A DNA stretch of 64,000 nucleotides. Origin: a virus. The notes below the pieces were generated by a model that was given only the letters and a program-made list of their open reading frames with translations, searched no databases and was not told the origin of the DNA. Positions 44,929-51,318 of this stretch are shown here, piece by piece. The stretch lies in the IMG/VR virus record IMGVR_UViG_3300010400_000002, positions 1-64,000 of that record; one strand, 5' to 3'. The translations under genes were made by a program, and so were the position numbers. Numbering within the stretch: the first letter of the stretch is position 1; each line of letters begins with the position of its first letter.

Positions 44929-45192
44929 ATGACTACCCTCAACAGAATAGAAAGCGACCGATGGAAAATGTATATCCAGCAGGTTAACGAAACCGGAGAT
45001 CACGGTGACTTCTGGGAAATGATGTTGAATAGCTCAAGCATTTCAGCACCATTATATAACTCATGGAGATCGGAGTTTCTAACGTGGAAAGGGATCTACG
45101 ATGATGACAGAAAATTGTACATCACCAAACCTGATGATACCACATACAAGGAAGATGGTATCTCCAATTTTCCGGTACCACCTTCAAAATAA
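44929..45192 (+). CDS. Hypothetical protein
   Basis: 87-aa ORF. Confidence 0.55.
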   Translation: MTTLNRIESDRWKMYIQQVNETGDHGDFWEMMLNSSSISAPLYNSWRSEFLTWKGIYDDDRKLYITKPDDTTYKEDGISNFPVPPSK

Positions 45193-45197
45193 TCCTG

Positions 45198-45578
45198 ATG
45201 CTTATAACAGACATTGCCCATGAGATAGTATTTCAGTGGAATACCCACATCAAAAAATCGGTGTTGCTTATGACTCCACTAAGTGCTACAACATTTTTGG
45301 TGACACTAATTGTAGGGCAAGTTCTCTCTGTCAATGATGCTTTTCCTAATTGGCTTGTAGGAATACTAACCGCAACCATTACTGTTCTTCTTTCTATTAT
45401 TGCCTTTGTCGCTGTACAGGTTTATCTCATTGTGAAAAAAGAGATCAGCAGTAATAATGTCAGAATGGATAAGCTTCTTGAAGTGCAAATAAAACATGGC
45501 AATGAGCTAATTCGATTGAGTACTGAAGTAGAAAACTTAAAAGAGGATGAGCAACCAAAGAAAAAAAGACTGGGATGA
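45198..45578 (+). CDS. Membrane protein, holin-like
   Basis: Two hydrophobic helices, then a coiled coil and basic tail. Confidence 0.5.
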   Translation: MLITDIAHEIVFQWNTHIKKSVLLMTPLSATTFLVTLIVGQVLSVNDAFPNWLVGILTATITVLLSIIAFVAVQVYLIVKKEISSNNVRMDKLLEVQIKHGNELIRLSTEVENLKEDEQPKKKRLG

Positions 45579-46042
45579 AAATTACTTACATCGTTGGAGT
45601 ATTTCTGCTCACATCACTACTTGAAATGTGGTGGCACATCAAAACATATCCTGCTACTCTCACTCCAATGGAACTGTATCAAGCGCGGGTTCATACATAC
45701 AATCTATCTATGAGTATGGCACAAGAGCTTCTTTACATTACTATGCTGATTTTTATTCCAGGGCTGTATGAAAAGACATTGGCAATTATCTGTATTGTGT
45801 TTCAAGGACTGAATGTTGCAGACTGGTATTTCGATTTCAATTGGAGAACAACAAACTATGACTTTGCGCTCTTCACTGTTTCAATTACGCTCATTATTTT
45901 GATGATGCGATTCAAAGTGTATGAACGAATAGACATCTTCACTCATAATATTTTGCATATACTCTTCAGGAATGGAACGATACAAATTGCGGGGAGGGTG
46001 ATTAACATTGAGCGAAAGAAGAAAAATAAATCATCATTGTAA
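45575..46042 (+). CDS. Multi-pass membrane protein
   Basis: About four hydrophobic segments and a basic C-terminus. Confidence 0.6.
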   Translation: MKITYIVGVFLLTSLLEMWWHIKTYPATLTPMELYQARVHTYNLSMSMAQELLYITMLIFIPGLYEKTLAIICIVFQGLNVADWYFDFNWRTTNYDFALFTVSITLIILMMRFKVYERIDIFTHNILHILFRNGTIQIAGRVINIERKKKNKSSL

Positions 46043-46051
46043 ACAACCAGT

Positions 46052-46453
46052 ATGGAGGAAGATCACTTAGAAGCAGCCGCGGCAGAAGAGAAATTTTCAT
46101 TCGATCTTCTTTTGGCAGTGTTTCAGAAGTTGCCGGATGCGATAGTTATCCTTAATGAGGACAGAAAGATATTCAGGGTAAACCCACAGGCAGAGCTATT
46201 GTTTGGGTATAATGAAATAGAATTAAAAAATAAACCCATTGAAATTCTTGTACCGGACTCACTGAAAGAACGCCACACTACGCATACTCAAACCTATGTA
46301 GATTCACCCTCATTACGTGCGATGGGAAGCGGTATTGAGTTGAAGGCAAAGAGAAAAAACGGAACAGAAATTCCTGTTGAAATAAATCTTAGTCCTGTGT
46401 CTACGGTTCGTGGTTTGTATGTGATTGCTGTAATCAGAAGAAAAGTAAAATAA
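46052..46453 (+). CDS. Stand-alone PAS domain (S-box) protein, FixL-like
   Basis: LPDAIVILNEDRKIFRVNPQAELLFGY...EILVP...RH...RAMGSGIELKAKRKNGTEIPVEINLSP. Confidence 0.9.
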   Translation: MEEDHLEAAAAEEKFSFDLLLAVFQKLPDAIVILNEDRKIFRVNPQAELLFGYNEIELKNKPIEILVPDSLKERHTTHTQTYVDSPSLRAMGSGIELKAKRKNGTEIPVEINLSPVSTVRGLYVIAVIRRKVK

Positions 46454-46462
46454 GTTTCTTGC

Positions 46463-46804
46463 ATGATAAGTTCCGTTTGGATTGGAATTACGGCAATAGC
46501 ACTTGGCTTGATAGGTGGTTATATCTCTTTGCGAGAACGATTAGTGAGATTGGAAGTGAAGATTGATGTATTCTGGCGTGACGTAAGTTATAGTTCTGCA
46601 AAACTTCTCCACAAACCGCACCCTGACAGTGCACGTATGGATTACCTCATAGATAAATACCTTGATGACAAACTGAATCAATCGGAGATAGTAGAATTCA
46701 TTGGCAAACTAAAGGAACTTTTTGAAAACAAAGACGCAGAAACAGCAGAAAGACAATCGGCAGCGATACTTCTTGCGGCACTGAGGCAGCGATACAAAGT
46801 GTAA
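46463..46804 (+). CDS. Membrane-anchored protein
   Basis: N-terminal TM helix followed by LRERLVRLEVKID coiled coil. Confidence 0.6.
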   Translation: MISSVWIGITAIALGLIGGYISLRERLVRLEVKIDVFWRDVSYSSAKLLHKPHPDSARMDYLIDKYLDDKLNQSEIVEFIGKLKELFENKDAETAERQSAAILLAALRQRYKV

Positions 46805-46833
46805 ATTTGATTACTAACTTTAAAACCAAAACT

Positions 46834-47079
46834 ATGAAACTACTTTCAATCTTACTCGCAATCTTCGCTGCACCATTCATGCAGGTAATCGGATTCTTCA
46901 TCGTCATCTGTATTGTTGCATGGGCATTATGGTGGCTGCTTACCACGGTAATCATTCCTCCGGCTCCGGCACCGCCGCGACCATTTAAGAACCTGGGCTA
47001 CATCATCTATGTGATCGTGGTGGCACTTATGTTTATTTGGTGGGTCAGTTTCGCCTTCGGGTTGGGGATATTTAATTAG
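46834..47079 (+). CDS. Small membrane protein
   Basis: Two to three TM helices around a Pro-rich linker; start approximate. Confidence 0.6.
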   Translation: MKLLSILLAIFAAPFMQVIGFFIVICIVAWALWWLLTTVIIPPAPAPPRPFKNLGYIIYVIVVALMFIWWVSFAFGLGIFN

Positions 47080-47115
47080 TGGTGGCAAATTTTTTAATCC
47101 TACATTTACAATCTC

Positions 47116-47487
47116 ATGGAGAAAGAAAACATCATCATTCACGTTCACAATGAAGGAATCATTGAGATAGGAATGATGTTGCAGAAGATTCTCCACTCAC
47201 AAGAAATTATTCTTCAAACTCTAAAACAAATTCAAATGACAAACGAAGAACTCAAAAAAGGACTCGATGATGTAAAAGCTACTCTCGACAGTATCGGTAC
47301 AGAGGTTGACAAAGTTGCAACCGAAACCAACACATTGAATTCAAAGATCGCTGATCTCGAAACTCAAATCGGGAATCTCGGTACTGTACCACAAGAATTA
47401 CAGGATGCTTTCAATGCGGTAAAAGATCAAGCCGGTGTTGTTGCATCTAAGGTTCAGGCGGTGGATGCTCTTGTGCCTGACGCGTAA
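47116..47487 (+). CDS. Coiled-coil protein
   Basis: Heptad-rich; last gene of the + strand block. Confidence 0.6.
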   Translation: MEKENIIIHVHNEGIIEIGMMLQKILHSQEIILQTLKQIQMTNEELKKGLDDVKATLDSIGTEVDKVATETNTLNSKIADLETQIGNLGTVPQELQDAFNAVKDQAGVVASKVQAVDALVPDA

Positions 47488-47514
47488 AGATTGTGTGTGT
47501 ATGTGTTTAGGAGA

Positions 47515-47546
47515 GCGGGGTGGCAAATCAGCACCCCGTTTTTTAT
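47515..47546 (+). terminator. Intrinsic terminator of the late (+) block
   Basis: CGGGGTG-loop-CACCCCG followed by TTTTTT. Confidence 0.85.
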
Positions 47547-47608
47547 TGAGGCAACTCAATCTGAAAGAGAAGTTTCTTTTGCTTCGGCGCAGTATCAATT
47601 CGGGGGGC

Positions 47609-47641
47609 AAAAAAAATGGATGATGTTTAGTCACCCATTTT
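47609..47641 (-). terminator. Intrinsic terminator ending the RAMP-array transcript
   Basis: On -: AAAAUGGGUGA-CUAAACA-UCAUCCA-U8; the G-U pair and U8 tract work only on the - strand. Confidence 0.8.
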
Positions 47642-48241
47642 AAACAGTACCATAGCGGTGCGAACCCAACCATGCCAGCGCCTAACAGAACCATATCCAA
47701 CAATACCGAGCCTTACACGATCACACCATACCGGCTTTCCAGCCCGTTCCATGCCATACCTCTACTTACATCAGCCAACCATACAGGACTAAAGCAAGCC
47801 ATTGCTAACCTATCCCGACCATACCGACTCTTTCGAGTCCGTACCCAACCGAACCATACCGAACACAAGCGAACCGCGCCGACGCCGAAGCTAACAATAC
47901 CATTCCCGATACTACCGCGCTCGACATAAGCTGACCAATCCATACCAAACCGGAGATAATTTTCCCGTTCCTTACCATACTCAACCGAACATTACCTAAG
48001 CCAGCCGTACCCTGCATAACCGAAGCTGACCGAACCGACTGAAATTAATCAGTCCGTACCACGCCGTACACTACCATTCCAAACAAAATTGAACCGTATC
48101 CCGCCATGCCGAATCGAACCTTACCACAACACACGGAACACCACCATGCACTACCATACCGGCTTTTAAAAAGCCCGCACCAAACCAAAACTCAGCTAAC
48201 CGGACAAAACCGAACTCCACATAACCCCGCCCCGGCAAACC
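47642..48241 (-). ncRNA. GGY-NN pentamer array: six putative guide-RNA units separated by five hairpins
   Basis: About 104 in-register pentamers (55 exact GGT/GGC by manual count; two 6-nt units); hairpins at 47733-47744, 47826-47839, 47952-47965, 48037-48054, 48161-48175. Confidence 0.85.
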
Positions 48242-48246
48242 GGAAT

Positions 48247-48873
48247 TTAATCTTCAATGACATCATAATTCTTAATAGCAAATCTTCCATATGACGGTCT
48301 GAAATCTCCAACGCCGCACAATCTTCCTGCCTGTACCAACGTGTCAATAAACAATGCCACATCAATATACTCAGGCAACTGAATCATGAATTGACATTTG
48401 CAAGTCCATCCTGATTTTAATGCAGGACGAGTGCGATTAATGCCTGACCGCTGAATAACAACACGCCGACGATCTTCATAATCCCATTCTTTCTTTCCTA
48501 AAGAGCAAAGTGGAGTTAATGAGATTACTCCTGCTTTGAATAAGTCCATTGCCGACTTACGAGGCGAGCGAGGGTCTTGTTTGAACTTTGATGCAGCGAT
48601 ACAACTCATGCGAAAATATTCACCCGGGATACAGAGAAATCCTTTATCATCCCGATAGACGTAGCTTTCGAGATCATCAGTTTTTTTAGCAGCAGAATTT
48701 TTTTTCGCTTTCGCTTTTTCATCTACTGCCTCTGCATTCCATCGGTGAAACAGCATGTCGGCTGTACCTTGAAATGTTACTTCAATCATGAACGGTTCTG
48801 AATGTTCAATGACTTTCTTTGCGCCGTTTGTTGGCTCACTCACATTCTTAGCGAGTGTTTTTGCTGTACTCAT
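48247..48873 (-). CDS. Stand-alone RAMP/Cas7-like RNA-binding protein
   Basis: IEVTFQGTADMLFH (beta-1), LCIPGEYFRMSC (cf. IPGSSLKG of Csm3/Cmr4-type RAMPs), RTRP, C-terminal Gly-rich loop AGRLCGVGDFRPSYGRF. Confidence 0.8.
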   Translation of the reverse strand: MSTAKTLAKNVSEPTNGAKKVIEHSEPFMIEVTFQGTADMLFHRWNAEAVDEKAKAKKNSAAKKTDDLESYVYRDDKGFLCIPGEYFRMSCIAASKFKQDPRSPRKSAMDLFKAGVISLTPLCSLGKKEWDYEDRRRVVIQRSGINRTRPALKSGWTCKCQFMIQLPEYIDVALFIDTLVQAGRLCGVGDFRPSYGRFAIKNYDVIED

Positions 48874-48889
48874 AATTATGAAATTAAAA

Positions 48890-48991
48890 AGCCCCTACGA
48901 CAAATGGTTCAAACCTTCACCGTTAGGAGAAAGTACATCTGCTTTCAGGGCTGTTTGGAAATGTCGTGATTGACACGATGAAAGTTTGAAC
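48890..48991 (-). promoter_or_regulatory. Structured 5' leader of the RAMP gene
   Basis: 16-bp stem GUUCAAACUUUCAUCG/CGGUGAAGGUUUGAAC plus alternative pairings AGCCCU/GGGGCU and ACGACA/UGUCGU. Confidence 0.7.
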
Positions 48992-48995
48992 GAGG

Positions 48996-49028
48996 CAAAT
49001 ATAAGGTGAGGGTATTACTAAATGCAAA
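48996..49028 (-). promoter_or_regulatory. Bacteroidota primary-sigma promoter for the RAMP-array unit
   Basis: TTTG (49028-49025), 21-nt spacer, TATATTTG (49003-48996); matches TTTG-N19-21-TAnnTTTG. Confidence 0.75.
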
Positions 49029-49135
49029 TCAGGATATAAACATTCGATTCACATAAATTGTCCTTTGTCAATCCATAGTGGCTTGTCGCCGTTCATCATG
49101 GAAAGATACTTCTGCTTAATTTTTTTGGCTCTCAT

Positions 49136-49732
49136 TTATATTTCAATTGAGTTATTCACTTCATTGCCTAATAAATCCCATCCCTCATATTCATAATTAG
49201 GGAACATTCCTTCACGTTCCCTTGCGAATAACTCCAATCGTTTAGGCTCTTCGAAAACCCTGTCAGTGACCTTCATTATCAATTCGCGGAAGTAATGCGG
49301 TTTCTGTGAGTGCTTACCAACTTTCTGTTCGTGAAGATCACCGAAGTCAAATTCCGAAGCATAGAAATTACAGGTTTGTTCTCTGAAGGCAGTAACATTT
49401 CCTTTAATTCCTAATAGCAGATGTTCGCATTGACCACGAAACCAATATCCCATTCCCTGACTCATTACCTTTCGCCACGTCATCATTGTCTTATACTTAA
49501 ATCCCCACGCAGCCATTACCTCAAAGGCTTCCGGCAATAGCGGAACGGTTGCCCCTAAGAACAACACCGAATTTTTCTCAGAAGGAATTTGCATTGCCTT
49601 GATATCATCAAGCGGCATCGTTTCATATTTTGTATGAGCGCCACTTCCTTCCGGCTGATCTCCATTAGTTCGCCCTGTCTTTTTATTCTCGTAAGACCAC
49701 GGCGGATCTGCGTAAATGACATTGTACTTCAT
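49136..49732 (-). CDS. MT-A70 family adenine methyltransferase
   Basis: YNVIYADPPW, AWGFKY, MGYWFRGQCEHLLLG, HSQKP, LELFAR. Confidence 0.9.
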   Translation of the reverse strand: MKYNVIYADPPWSYENKKTGRTNGDQPEGSGAHTKYETMPLDDIKAMQIPSEKNSVLFLGATVPLLPEAFEVMAAWGFKYKTMMTWRKVMSQGMGYWFRGQCEHLLLGIKGNVTAFREQTCNFYASEFDFGDLHEQKVGKHSQKPHYFRELIMKVTDRVFEEPKRLELFAREREGMFPNYEYEGWDLLGNEVNNSIEI

Positions 49733-49948
49733 GCCGAAAGTTTTTTCACTCTAATATCCACAATCCACCTGAAAAAGCACAGGGAGAGAATCTTAAATTT
49801 CCCGTCCTTACAGTGATGGACTCCGTGGACGAGGCTGAACTTTAGGATGGAGGGGTTGGGTAATAATTTCATGGTGTATATTTAGTGATCTTAAACGTAA
49901 AAAACTCCTTCCCCTTCGCCACGATCTCCTTCTCCACGACAAGCCGGA

Positions 49949-50686
49949 CTAACACACTTTCTTCTGAACATGAATACCATAAGAGTCCGTTATTTTATGG
50001 CATGGCTTACATAATGTTAATCCGTTATCCACATCCCATAATAACTTACAGGAAAGAGCATCAATAGTGTCCTTCAAATTGAATTGATAGATAATATTTG
50101 CTAAACTTATTTTATGATGGCATTCCAACCTAACATTATTTTTACCACAGTTTTGGCAAGTGAAATTATCTCTCTTATAAACACTCAATCTCCATTGATT
50201 ATATTCAACCAATCTTCTTATCTTATCTTTAATAATATTAAACCCTTTTCCCTTCCCATATCTCCAATGATTCGTTCCGCTAATTCTAAGCCTCGCTTCT
50301 AAAGTATACTTTTTGTTTCGGGTGAACGCCTTTCCTTTCATAAAGGCACTGTGCGCTGGTCTCTGTCTACCTAATTTAAAAACATGATAGCATTGTTGAG
50401 AACAGAATTTTCTTTTTAGTGATTTGGAAAATTTAATATCTCTATTACAGATGGAGCATTTTGATTTCACCTTTCCTTTTCCAAAATCATTAGTCATACA
50501 TATGACGTCACAATATATCCGCTTACATTTCTTTTTACAGTACCTACAATTATTTAGAATAGTTATCTTTCTTTTTCTTCTTTTTCTTATTCTTGAGCAT
50601 GTTTCCGAACAAGTTGTTCTGTTATTAAGTTGACATGGAAATACTTTGAATGGTGCATTACAAACAATACAGTTCTTAGTAATCAT
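49949..50686 (-). CDS. HNH endonuclease with N-terminal Cys-rich zinc-finger repeats
   Basis: WRLSVYKRDNFTCQNCG...LECHH...NGLTLCKPCH; true start likely MITKNC at 50686. Confidence 0.85.
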   Translation of the reverse strand: MITKNCIVCNAPFKVFPCQLNNRTTCSETCSRIRKRRKRKITILNNCRYCKKKCKRIYCDVICMTNDFGKGKVKSKCSICNRDIKFSKSLKRKFCSQQCYHVFKLGRQRPAHSAFMKGKAFTRNKKYTLEARLRISGTNHWRYGKGKGFNIIKDKIRRLVEYNQWRLSVYKRDNFTCQNCGKNNVRLECHHKISLANIIYQFNLKDTIDALSCKLLWDVDNGLTLCKPCHKITDSYGIHVQKKVC

Positions 50687-50699
50687 CTTAAAAAAGATA

Positions 50700-50813
50700 G
50701 CCGCTGGCAATGGTGGCTTATCAACACAATCCGTAGGGAAGGAGTTGCACCAAAGCAGCGGCGTTTTTTGTTGAAGATGTTCATGGATTGAATTGATAAG
50801 CATTGCAAATTTA
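50700..50813 (-). promoter_or_regulatory. Promoter plus structured leader of the HNH gene
   Basis: TAAATTTG (50813-50806); long stem GCUUAUCAAUUCAAUCC/GGAUUGUGUUGAUAAGC; alternative pairing GCCGCUG/CAGCGGC. Confidence 0.65.
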
Positions 50814-50814
50814 A

Positions 50815-51318
50815 TTAAACTTCTTTTATTTCAATTTTATTAATTGCAAACATCAACTTCTTCTTCAGTCGGTAAACTGCTAACTTCCTTGTCATCTTCG
50901 ACTTTACATCTTCAACAACCTTAACTCCTTTCTCAAAATAACTGAAGTCACTCCGATAATAGCACACCTGTTGACCATTGATTATTAGCGGAAATTCTTC
51001 CTGTAACTGCAAATCCGTAATCTCACGATTCTTCTGCATATCGGATAGAATCAAGTAACGGCGGTACTCTTTCTCCGAATCGAATTTCAATCCTTCTTTG
51101 GTGACTACCTTCTTGTTTCGGTACTTGGGTAATTTCTTTGATTCCTGCACCCTTGCTTTAACGCTGTCAGGCGACTTCGCTTTGGAGATAGCAGCGGTGG
51201 GTTTGGGGCTTGCGTGGCTCAGAGGGCTTGTTTTGACGTTCTTTCTGTCCAACAAGATTTCATCGAGGGATTTGCCCTTGTGGTATTGGTGATACTCTTC
51301 AACCGACAACACTGTCAT
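50815..51318 (-). CDS. DUF1064-family PD-(D/E)xK endonuclease
   Basis: KYRNKKV...FDSEKEYRRY...LQLQEEF...YRSDFSY...VVEDVKS...YRLKKKL. Confidence 0.85.
   Translation of the reverse strand: MTVLSVEEYHQYHKGKSLDEILLDRKNVKTSPLSHASPKPTAAISKAKSPDSVKARVQESKKLPKYRNKKVVTKEGLKFDSEKEYRRYLILSDMQKNREITDLQLQEEFPLIINGQQVCYYRSDFSYFEKGVKVVEDVKSKMTRKLAVYRLKKKLMFAINKIEIKEV

What the first reader, a model, noticed from the sequence alone, without database searches (positions are those of the whole stretch)
47726..48181. Sequence-variable, structure-conserved hairpins punctuate the array (candidate processing sites)
Seen: five stem-loops with different sequences. On -: GGCUUU-UUA-AAAGCC; GACUGA-UUAAUU-UCAGUC; GGAAA-AUUA-UCUCC (one mismatch); GACUC-GAAA-GAGUC; GGCU-GGAA-AGCC. 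Two have GNRA tetraloops. All share the context GG(U/A)(A/G)CG-[stem]-GGU, followed by AUGG in three of five. Inference: they act like CRISPR repeats, delimiting ~85-125-nt guides and capping filaments; no Cas6 is present, so a host RNase or the RAMP itself may cut them.
Basis: partly seen in the sequence, partly recalled or inferred. Interest (0 to 1): 0.75.

Follow-up and report, generated by a model that had tools for sequence, protein, structure and literature searches.

The report
Hairpin tails between VIPR guide RNAs
The five small stem-loops are real and most likely mark the ends of six consecutive guide RNAs of a phage VIPR system, a CRISPR-related DNA silencer first described in 2026, so this is a new example of a known system with an unusually short guide tail.

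Summary
Each is larger than noted. The conserved flanks pair into a 2-4 bp lower stem, separated by a G.G mismatch from the 4-6 bp upper stem.

The surrounding system is already published. The 208-aa gene at 48247-48873(-) is a Vipr protein: it matches the solved SUSP1 Vipr by sequence and has a Cas7/Csm3 fold. The 600-nt stretch downstream is its GGY-NN vrRNA array (bioRxiv 10.64898/2026.04.26.720920 and .720927). In the model phage each guide ends in a structured 3' tail that caps the Vipr filament. The hairpins here best fit that role, in a minimal form of 12-18 nt that varies in sequence and has no pseudoknot. An intrinsic terminator closes the last guide.

Whether the hairpins are cleavage sites is untested. 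No RNA data exist for this soil phage, and no close relative could be fetched. The complete 78-kb phage has no Cas6 gene, no accessory gene was found, and the region holds no ribozyme.

This scan has already met VIPR loci in at least 71 other genomes, some with short hairpin tails. Verdict: a new member of a known kind, of modest interest.

The parts
48247..48873 (-). vipr gene, 208 aa (P0001): a Cas7-like RAMP protein that reads GGY motifs
   Evidence: phmmer matches PDB 36pp_D 'SUSP1 Vipr protein' at E=3.1e-5, with the G-loop LCGVGD(F/W)RP aligned. BLASTP against SUSP1 Vipr gives 32% identity over 74 aa, E=1e-9. The AF2 model has pLDDT 92.9. Foldseek top hits are Csm3/Cas7 at E~1e-7.
47642..48243 (-). 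vrRNA array: about 101 in-register pentamers of the form (G/U)(G/C)Y-NN. It is the only such array in the 78-kb phage.
   Evidence: GG recurs every 5 nt. Position 1 is G in 77%, position 2 is G in 80% and position 3 is a pyrimidine in 91% of pentamers; 60 of 101 have GG. 70 of 79 loci (78 fetched relatives plus this window) carry such arrays on the gene strand.
48232..48243 (-). small hairpin CCGG/UUUG/CCGG directly after the vipr stop codon, at the head of the array
48156..48180 (-). H1 bipartite helix (upper stem-loop 48161-48175); closes tract U1 (48177-48231, 11 pentamers)
   Evidence: dG -11.8, z -3.0
48034..48057 (-). H2 bipartite helix (upper stem-loop 48037-48054); closes tract U2 (48056-48160, 21 pentamers)
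   Evidence: dG -11.8, z -3.1
47947..47970 (-). H3 bipartite helix (upper stem-loop 47952-47965, one mismatch); closes tract U3 (47967-48036, 14 pentamers)
   Evidence: dG -6.8, z -1.1 (the weakest of the five)
47821..47844 (-). H4 bipartite helix (upper stem-loop 47826-47839, GAAA loop); closes tract U4 (47841-47951, 22 pentamers with a 1-nt register slip near 47881)
   Evidence: dG -12.4, z -5.3
47730..47747 (-). H5 bipartite helix (upper stem-loop 47733-47744, GGAA loop); closes tract U5 (47746-47825, 16 pentamers)
   Evidence: dG -8.8, z -2.6
47609..47641 (-). 11-bp hairpin followed by a U8 run: an intrinsic-terminator-like end of the last tract U6 (47647-47732) and of the whole vipr-array transcript
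   Evidence: dG -10.7; sequence. The consensus scan did not flag it, because its stem has too few G-C pairs.

Best explanation
The five stem-loops are the structured tail modules that end consecutive vrRNAs of a VIPR array. Vipr (48247-48873, minus strand) and about 600 nt of GGY-NN pentamers are transcribed together and stop at the hairpin plus U8 at 47641-47609.

Shown in the model system: Vipr protomers polymerise one per pentamer, hold each GGY and expose NN for gapped pairing with DNA.

Inferred here: each hairpin begins at the second G of an in-register GG, so it ends the readable repeat tract. It stops and caps the filament and marks the 3' end of one guide. It probably also protects that end from 3' exonucleases after the long transcript is cut. 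The result would be six guides of about 11-22 pentamers, the last using the terminator hairpin as its tail.

The tail is recognised by shape and by its flanks (WRC-G / G-GUW lower stem, G.G mismatch, G-C closing pair), not by stem sequence. It is a minimal counterpart of the 40-nt pseudoknot tail of phage SUSP1.
For: Membership of VIPR:
- Vipr homology by sequence and by fold.
- The residues published as reading GGY align: D190, F191 and R192 in the G-loop, C186, V188 and thumb R149, from the alignment read against the residue numbers.
- The pentamer statistics fit.
- The gene and the array are associated on the same strand in 70 of 79 loci, counting this window.

The hairpins are real and under selection:
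- Enrichment over shuffles.
- Stable local folds that persist in the global fold.
- 92.5% pairing with changes on both sides, against 17-43% in slid controls.
- G-U pairs in the lower stem exist only in the minus-strand transcript.

The 3'-tail role rests on analogy and layout:
- Published vrRNAs are repeats followed by a structured 3' tail, which caps the filament.
- In the SUSP1 locus the tail stem also starts right after the last GG.
- Relatives L023, L028 and L037 end each tract with a hairpin plus a U-run.
- In the window every tract, including the last one before the terminator, ends in GG(U/A)(A/G)C, and most start with GGUAU.

Other processing devices are absent: no ribozyme (Rfam) and no Cas6.
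Against: - There is no expression or RNA-end data for this DNA.
- No relative above 67% Vipr identity could be fetched, so conservation rests on five paralogous copies in one array.
- A covariance model of the hairpins finds nothing comparable in 69 related loci; the best hit is 19 bits.
- H3 is weak (z = -1.1).
- Only 60 of 101 pentamers keep GG, so part of the array may be decaying.
- Tracts of 21-22 pentamers exceed the published 9-16.
- The lower stem joins the last pentamer of one unit to the first of the next. That fits an uncut junction as well as a tail.
- No target was found for the one guide tested.
Confidence: 0.68

Rival explanations
1. The hairpins are 5' handles. Each one nucleates Vipr assembly on the tract that follows it and belongs to the downstream guide.
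For: The pentamers just after the hairpins are conserved: GGUAU GGU in 3 of 5. A small hairpin also precedes the first tract, at 48243-48232.
Against: The published vrRNAs have their structured element at the 3' end. Relatives end tracts with a hairpin plus a U-run. The last tract here ends in a hairpin too, and its final pentamer GGUAC matches those before H2 and H4.
Confidence: 0.12
2. The array is never cut. The hairpins are insulators inside one long RNA that only interrupt Vipr polymerisation, giving several filaments on one molecule.
For: No nuclease, ribozyme or U-tract lies at the internal hairpins. The lower stem bridges neighbouring units.
Against: In SUSP1 and other types the arrays yield separate RNAs of about 100 nt in small-RNA sequencing.
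Confidence: 0.1
3. The palindromes act at the DNA level. They would be cassette borders for recombination or exchange of guide units, in the manner of structure-conserved, sequence-variable integron attC sites.
For: Variable stems sit between conserved flanks, and guide units differ in length.
Against: G-U pairs in the lower stem are valid only in the minus-strand RNA. There is no recombinase next to the locus. The stems are short, at 4-6 bp.
Confidence: 0.04
4. The hairpins are functionless remnants of longer tails, or arose by chance in a G/U-rich sequence.
For: The array is degenerate, with 59% GG. H3 is marginal.
Against: None of 2000 shuffles reaches the observed count. All five share the same bipartite geometry and the same start at the second G of a GG.
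Confidence: 0.04

Closest known systems
3' tail of type II VIPR vrRNAs (Escherichia phage SUSP1; bioRxiv 10.64898/2026.04.26.720920 and 10.64898/2026.04.26.720927)
   Same: A structured element follows each GGY-NN tract. Its stem starts directly after the last GG with a G. Base pairs covary between copies. It lies in an array next to vipr on the same strand.
   Different: The SUSP1 tail is about 40 nt, is called invariable within its clade, and forms a hairpin plus pseudoknot. A further spacer of roughly 40 nt follows it before the next tract. Here the element is a hairpin of 12-18 nt, or 18-25 nt with the lower stem. There is no pseudoknot, the stem sequences differ within one array, and the next tract starts at once. 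No vap gene was found in or beside this locus.
CRISPR repeat hairpins cut by Cas6 (types I-E, I-F, some III)
   Same: Short stem-loops punctuate a multi-guide transcript and stay on the guide as a handle that ends a RAMP filament.
   Different: CRISPR repeats are identical in sequence within an array and are 23-50 nt long, and a dedicated Cas6 gene is present. Here the stems differ, only the flanks are shared, and no Cas6 exists in the phage. The guides are pentamer-coded rather than contiguous spacers.
Other published VIPR array architectures: hammerhead-interspersed arrays and staggered arrays (legends of figs S18, S19)
   Same: Several vrRNAs lie head to tail in one array, and some device must separate them.
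   Different: No hammerhead or any other Rfam family is found here at E<=1, and the separators are too small for any self-cleaving ribozyme known to me (my own knowledge, not tested). Staggered arrays are described as units abutting with a 1-nt overlap. No hairpin is mentioned in the held text, and the figures are not held, so identity with that class cannot be excluded.
Intrinsic (Rho-independent) terminators
   Same: The final hairpin at 47641-47613 plus U8 fits this class and doubles as the last guide's end.
   Different: The five internal hairpins are followed by GGU(A/U)(U/C)GG, not by a U-run.

Membership tests
VIPR system (Vipr + vrRNA) | Vipr protein: a small single-RRM RAMP with a G-loop and a thumb | tested here: met
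   phmmer to PDB 36pp_D 'SUSP1 Vipr protein', E=3.1e-5. BLASTP E=1e-9. The AF2 model, pLDDT 92.9, matches Csm3/Cas7 chains at E~1e-7.
VIPR system (Vipr + vrRNA) | Residues that read GGY: G-loop Asp, aromatic and Arg, Cys/Val of the pyrimidine pocket, and the thumb Arg | tested here: met
   The alignment puts C186, V188, D190, F191 and R192 on SUSP1's LCGVGDWR, and R149 on R138. The roles of these residues are as printed. D190, R192 and R149 are at least 90% conserved in 68 homologues.
VIPR system (Vipr + vrRNA) | Tandem GGY-NN pentamers next to vipr on the same strand, with variable NN | tested here: met
   for the window. In relatives position 3 is a pyrimidine in 88% and positions 4 and 5 are near random. 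70 of 79 loci carry arrays on the gene strand. The window's repeats are relaxed, with GG in 60 of 101.
VIPR system (Vipr + vrRNA) | 9-16 repeats per vrRNA | tested here: inconclusive
   The tracts between hairpins hold 11, 21, 14, 22, 16 and about 17 pentamers. Two 1-nt register slips could subdivide U4 and U6. The true RNA ends are unknown.
VIPR system (Vipr + vrRNA) | A structured 3' tail after each repeat tract | tested here: met
   Five bipartite hairpins and a terminator hairpin follow the six tracts. That they lie at the 3' end of the mature RNA is inferred, not shown.
VIPR type II, SUSP1 clade | A conserved tail of about 40 nt with a pseudoknot, plus a vap1 gene after vipr | tested here: not met
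   The tails here are 12-18 nt with no downstream pseudoknot partner. The array starts 4 nt after the vipr stop. No homologue of the 147-aa gene that follows vipr in phage DSL-LC04 is found in the complete genome. Vipr is only 32% identical to SUSP1 Vipr over 74 aa.
VIPR system (Vipr + vrRNA) | vrRNAs are expressed, bound by Vipr, and match targets by the 1-nt skip rule | not testable with these tools
   No RNA holder is listed. One exact-match target scan for tract U3 in IMG/VR found nothing, which says little.
CRISPR array with Cas6 processing | Identical direct repeats of 23-50 nt, contiguous spacers and cas genes including Cas6 | tested here: not met
   The stems differ in sequence. No Cas6, Csy4 or CasE family matches in the complete phage.
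Hammerhead-interspersed VIPR arrays | A self-cleaving ribozyme between guides | tested here: not met
   cmscan of 45000-51000 at E<=1 gives no ribozyme family.

The most novel reading that the evidence does not exclude
In this Vipr clade the guide tail is reduced to a shape-only hairpin, and Vipr itself recognises it and cuts at its base. One ancestral RAMP would then do both the Cas6 job (processing) and the Cas7 job (coating), and tails that differ in sequence would make the guides hard for rival elements to copy.
Probability: 0.1. Interest if true: 0.7.

Novelty: new member of a known kind. Interest (0 to 1): 0.3.

Why it matters
VIPR is a months-old field, and the held text of its papers does not say how multi-guide arrays are separated, apart from arrays that carry hammerhead ribozymes. 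This locus has one protein gene, six candidate guides, 12-18-nt hairpins and one terminator. It would be a compact test bed for what defines a vrRNA end, and for whether Vipr or a host RNase makes it.

The published satellite work shows that rivals hijack Vipr by copying the conserved SUSP1 tail. A tail defined by shape rather than sequence would bear on that arms race and on the design of minimal guides. None of this changes the class: the system, its repeat code and the idea of a capping tail are already in print.

Tried and rejected
The contigs of the closest Vipr relatives (P0002-P0008, 72-85% identity) could therefore not be fetched, and orthologous hairpins could not be compared.
- No RNA holder is listed for this DNA. 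The only run is the soil metagenome it probably came from.
- blastn of the locus against the phage collection found no match.
- The Rfam scan found nothing relevant.
- Single-sequence AF2 gave a useless model, pLDDT 41. It was replaced by the alignment-based model.
- The flank-pattern scan GGTACGG-N(9-16)-CGGTATGG in IMG/VR returned over 100 unspecific hits, none a hairpin inside an array.
- The covariance model R1 of the five hairpins scored only its own training copies. The best hit in 69 related loci was 19 bits, E 0.08.
- An exact-match target scan for tract U3 (11 dinucleotides, 1-nt skip) in IMG/VR found nothing.
- A family-wide parse of array interruptions gave only a modest hairpin excess, 17 against 9.3 expected, and the parser swallowed three of the window's own hairpins. 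It is not used as evidence.
- Ideas considered before the literature was found, then dropped: a G-quadruplex array, a TRAP- or CsrA-type protein sponge, a Rho or DNA-level iteron array, and a tRNA 3'-end sponge.

Full report
**The observation**

On the minus strand of 47725-48183 all five stem-loops are present as described:

| Hairpin | Stem / loop / stem | Coordinates |
|---|---|---|
| H1 | GGCUUU / UUA / AAAGCC | 48175-48161 |
| H2 | GACUGA / UUAAUU / UCAGUC | 48054-48037 |
| H3 | GGAAA / AUUA / UCUCC (one A-C mismatch) | 47965-47952 |
| H4 | GACUC / GAAA / GAGUC | 47839-47826 |
| H5 | GGCU / GGAA / AGCC | 47744-47733 |

The 5' contexts are GGUGCG, GGUACG, GGAACG, GGUACG and GGAACG. Every hairpin is followed by GGU, and three by GGUAUGG. 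GAAA and GGAA are GNRA loops.

The hairpins are not chance. Perfect-stem hairpins in the CG[stem]GG context number 4 in the 606-nt array. In 2000 dinucleotide shuffles the mean is 0.05 and none reaches 4. Elsewhere in the window the rate is 0.02-0.03 per 606 nt.

The conserved flanks are themselves base-paired. Strand folding gives the same bipartite helix for all five:
- a lower stem of 2-4 bp, where (U/A)(A/G)C pairs with G(U)(A/U);
- a 1x1 G.G mismatch;
- the upper stem of 4-6 bp.

The energies are -6.8 to -12.4 kcal/mol and the z-scores -2.6 to -5.3. H3 is the exception at -1.1.

On the alignment A2, 92.5% of pair cells are standard pairs and three pairs change on both sides. Sliding the 3' partners drops pairing to 17-43%. 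The G-U pairs in the lower stem are valid only in the minus-strand transcript, so the structure acts in RNA. All five helices persist in the MFE and the centroid of the whole 651-nt fold. The rest of that fold is no better than shuffles, z = -1.4.

In every case the upper stem starts at the second G of a GG that is in register with the pentamer repeat.

**The surroundings**

The hairpins lie in a 600-nt non-coding stretch in which GG recurs every 5 nt. There are about 101 in-register pentamers. Position 1 is G in 77%, position 2 is G in 80% and position 3 is a pyrimidine in 91%. Positions 4 and 5 are variable.

The stretch begins 4 nt after the stop codon of a 208-aa ORF (48247-48873, minus strand; P0001). 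It ends in an 11-bp hairpin followed by U8 at 47641-47609. It is the only such array in the genome, which is a complete 78,308-bp virus record with terminal repeats. The neighbouring genes are ordinary phage genes: an MT-A70 methylase, an HNH endonuclease, a DUF1064 resolvase and a MazG-type enzyme.

P0001 has no Pfam family but more than 6600 homologues. In 70 of 79 loci (78 fetched relatives plus this window) a GG-5-nt array lies on the same strand as the gene, upstream, downstream or both. Only 6 show one on the opposite strand.

**Identification**

A full-text search for the motif found the system in print. It is VIPR, Viral Interference Programmable Repeat: a Vipr RAMP protein plus vrRNAs of alternating GGY/NN (bioRxiv 10.64898/2026.04.26.720920). 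The structures are in 10.64898/2026.04.26.720927, and the biology of competition with a phage satellite is in 10.64898/2026.10.15.759431.

Evidence that P0001 is a Vipr:
- phmmer finds the solved 'SUSP1 Vipr protein' (36pp_D, E=3.1e-5), with the G-loop LCGVGD(F/W)RP aligned.
- BLASTP against the SUSP1 gene product gives 32% identity over 74 aa, E=1e-9.
- The alignment-based AF2 model (pLDDT 92.9) matches Csm3/Cas7 chains at E about 1e-7.
- The residues published as holding G1, G2 and Y3 correspond to D190, F191, R192, C186, V188 and R149, which are conserved in the family.

**What the hairpins are**

In the papers a vrRNA is 9-16 repeats followed by a structured 3' tail. [quoted passage not shown] I fetched the SUSP1 locus (L200). 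There the tail stem also begins right after the last GG (GG-GUGG..., GG-GUAG...). That tail is about 40 nt and includes a pseudoknot.

Relatives of P0001 show other tails:
- L023, L028 and L037 have AT-rich tails of about 45 nt with a GCAA-loop hairpin and a U-run.
- L002, L011 and L067 have two hairpins plus a ttccgagtgc-like motif.
- L007 and L024 have complementary AT-rich flanks.

In the window each of the six tracts ends in GG(U/A)(A/G)C, including the last one before the terminator. Five are closed by the bipartite hairpin and the sixth by the terminator hairpin.

The best reading is that the hairpins are minimal, shape-defined 3' tails. They end the Vipr-readable tract, cap the filament and delimit six guides of 11-22 pentamers. 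Shown here: the structures, their non-randomness and their covariation, and the identity of the protein and the repeat code. Inferred: that the hairpins sit at the 3' end of mature RNAs, that they cap filaments, and that the transcript is cut.

**Processing**

- The complete phage has no Cas6, Csy4 or CasE family member.
- The region has no Rfam ribozyme. Hammerhead-separated arrays are a published VIPR variant.
- The internal hairpins lack U-runs, so they are not terminators.
- The held text of the discovery paper contains no word on maturation, RNases or biogenesis.
- A plasmid with only vrRNA1 and vipr silences in E. coli. Vipr and/or host enzymes therefore suffice in that system.
- No RNA data exist for this soil phage.

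**Limits**

- A covariance model of the hairpins finds nothing similar in 69 related loci. The module is specific to this clade, or at least diverges fast.
- The array is relaxed, with GG in 59% of pentamers, and two tracts are longer than the published range.
- Two 1-nt register slips after GGCGY, near 47881 and 47677, may be further unit borders without hairpins.
- One exact-match target scan failed.

**Verdict**

The system itself is already known. This scan has reported VIPR loci in at least 71 other genomes, among them a 78-kb soil-type phage said to have simple hairpins between guides and no accessory gene, and a freshwater phage with a short hairpin tail. The locus is therefore a new member of a known kind. 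What may be useful is that its guide tail is about the smallest yet seen and varies in sequence within one array. That makes it a clean substrate for asking how vrRNA ends are made.

Noticed in passing
window 47881 and 47677 (minus strand): There are two 1-nt register slips in the pentamer array, both right after a GGCG(U/C) pentamer (GGCGU-C-GGCGC and GGCGC-U-GGCAU). They split the long tracts U4 and U6 and might be unit borders without a hairpin, perhaps akin to the published 'staggered' arrays.
   Followed up: partly
window 47967-48036 (tract U3): Read by the published 1-nt skip rule on the reverse complement, the 14 dinucleotides are compatible with V-(F/L)-(I/M)-(H/Q)-(D/E)-(F/L)-Y-(H/Q)-V-L-Y-(D/E)-(C/W)-(D/E). 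An exact-match scan of IMG/VR with 11 of the dinucleotides found no target.
   Followed up: partly
window 46052-46453 (+): A 133-aa ORF among the late or structural genes is a clear PAS domain (PF00989, E=4e-13). That is an unusual domain for a phage gene at the end of the tail module.
   Followed up: no
L007:2680-2800 and L008, L024:2360-2445: In some relatives a repeat tract is enclosed by complementary AT-rich segments such as UUUUAUUGGAAAAA and UUUUUCCAAUAAAA. Between L007 and L008 there is a compensatory change (U-A to C-G). This suggests a long-range stem that closes the guide as a loop, a different tail architecture.
   Followed up: partly
L023:2190-2235, L028:355-410, L037:85-130: Relatives with 63-65% Vipr identity end each tract with an AT-rich module of about 45 nt. 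It contains a covarying GCAA-loop hairpin and a U-run, followed by an AT-rich stretch. Each guide may therefore have its own terminator and promoter.
   Followed up: no
L199:2498-3555 (Phage DSL-LC04, OR003939.1): The Vipr homologue of this cultured-collection phage (65% identity) is annotated as a 'helix-turn-helix transcriptional regulator'. It is followed, with overlapping stop and start, by a 147-aa hypothetical gene of the same size as SUSP1 vap1 (146 aa). This is a candidate accessory gene that the window's phage lacks.
   Followed up: partly
window 47520-47552: A G+C-rich hairpin followed by a T-run on the plus strand looks like the terminator of the convergent plus-strand operon that ends at 47487. 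The two converging units thus each have their own terminator, about 60 nt apart.
   Followed up: no
window 48875-48903 (minus strand): A promoter-like site (TTGTCG, 17 nt, CATAAT) ends only 2 nt before the annotated vipr start codon. That would imply a leaderless mRNA or a different start, or it may be a chance match.
   Followed up: no
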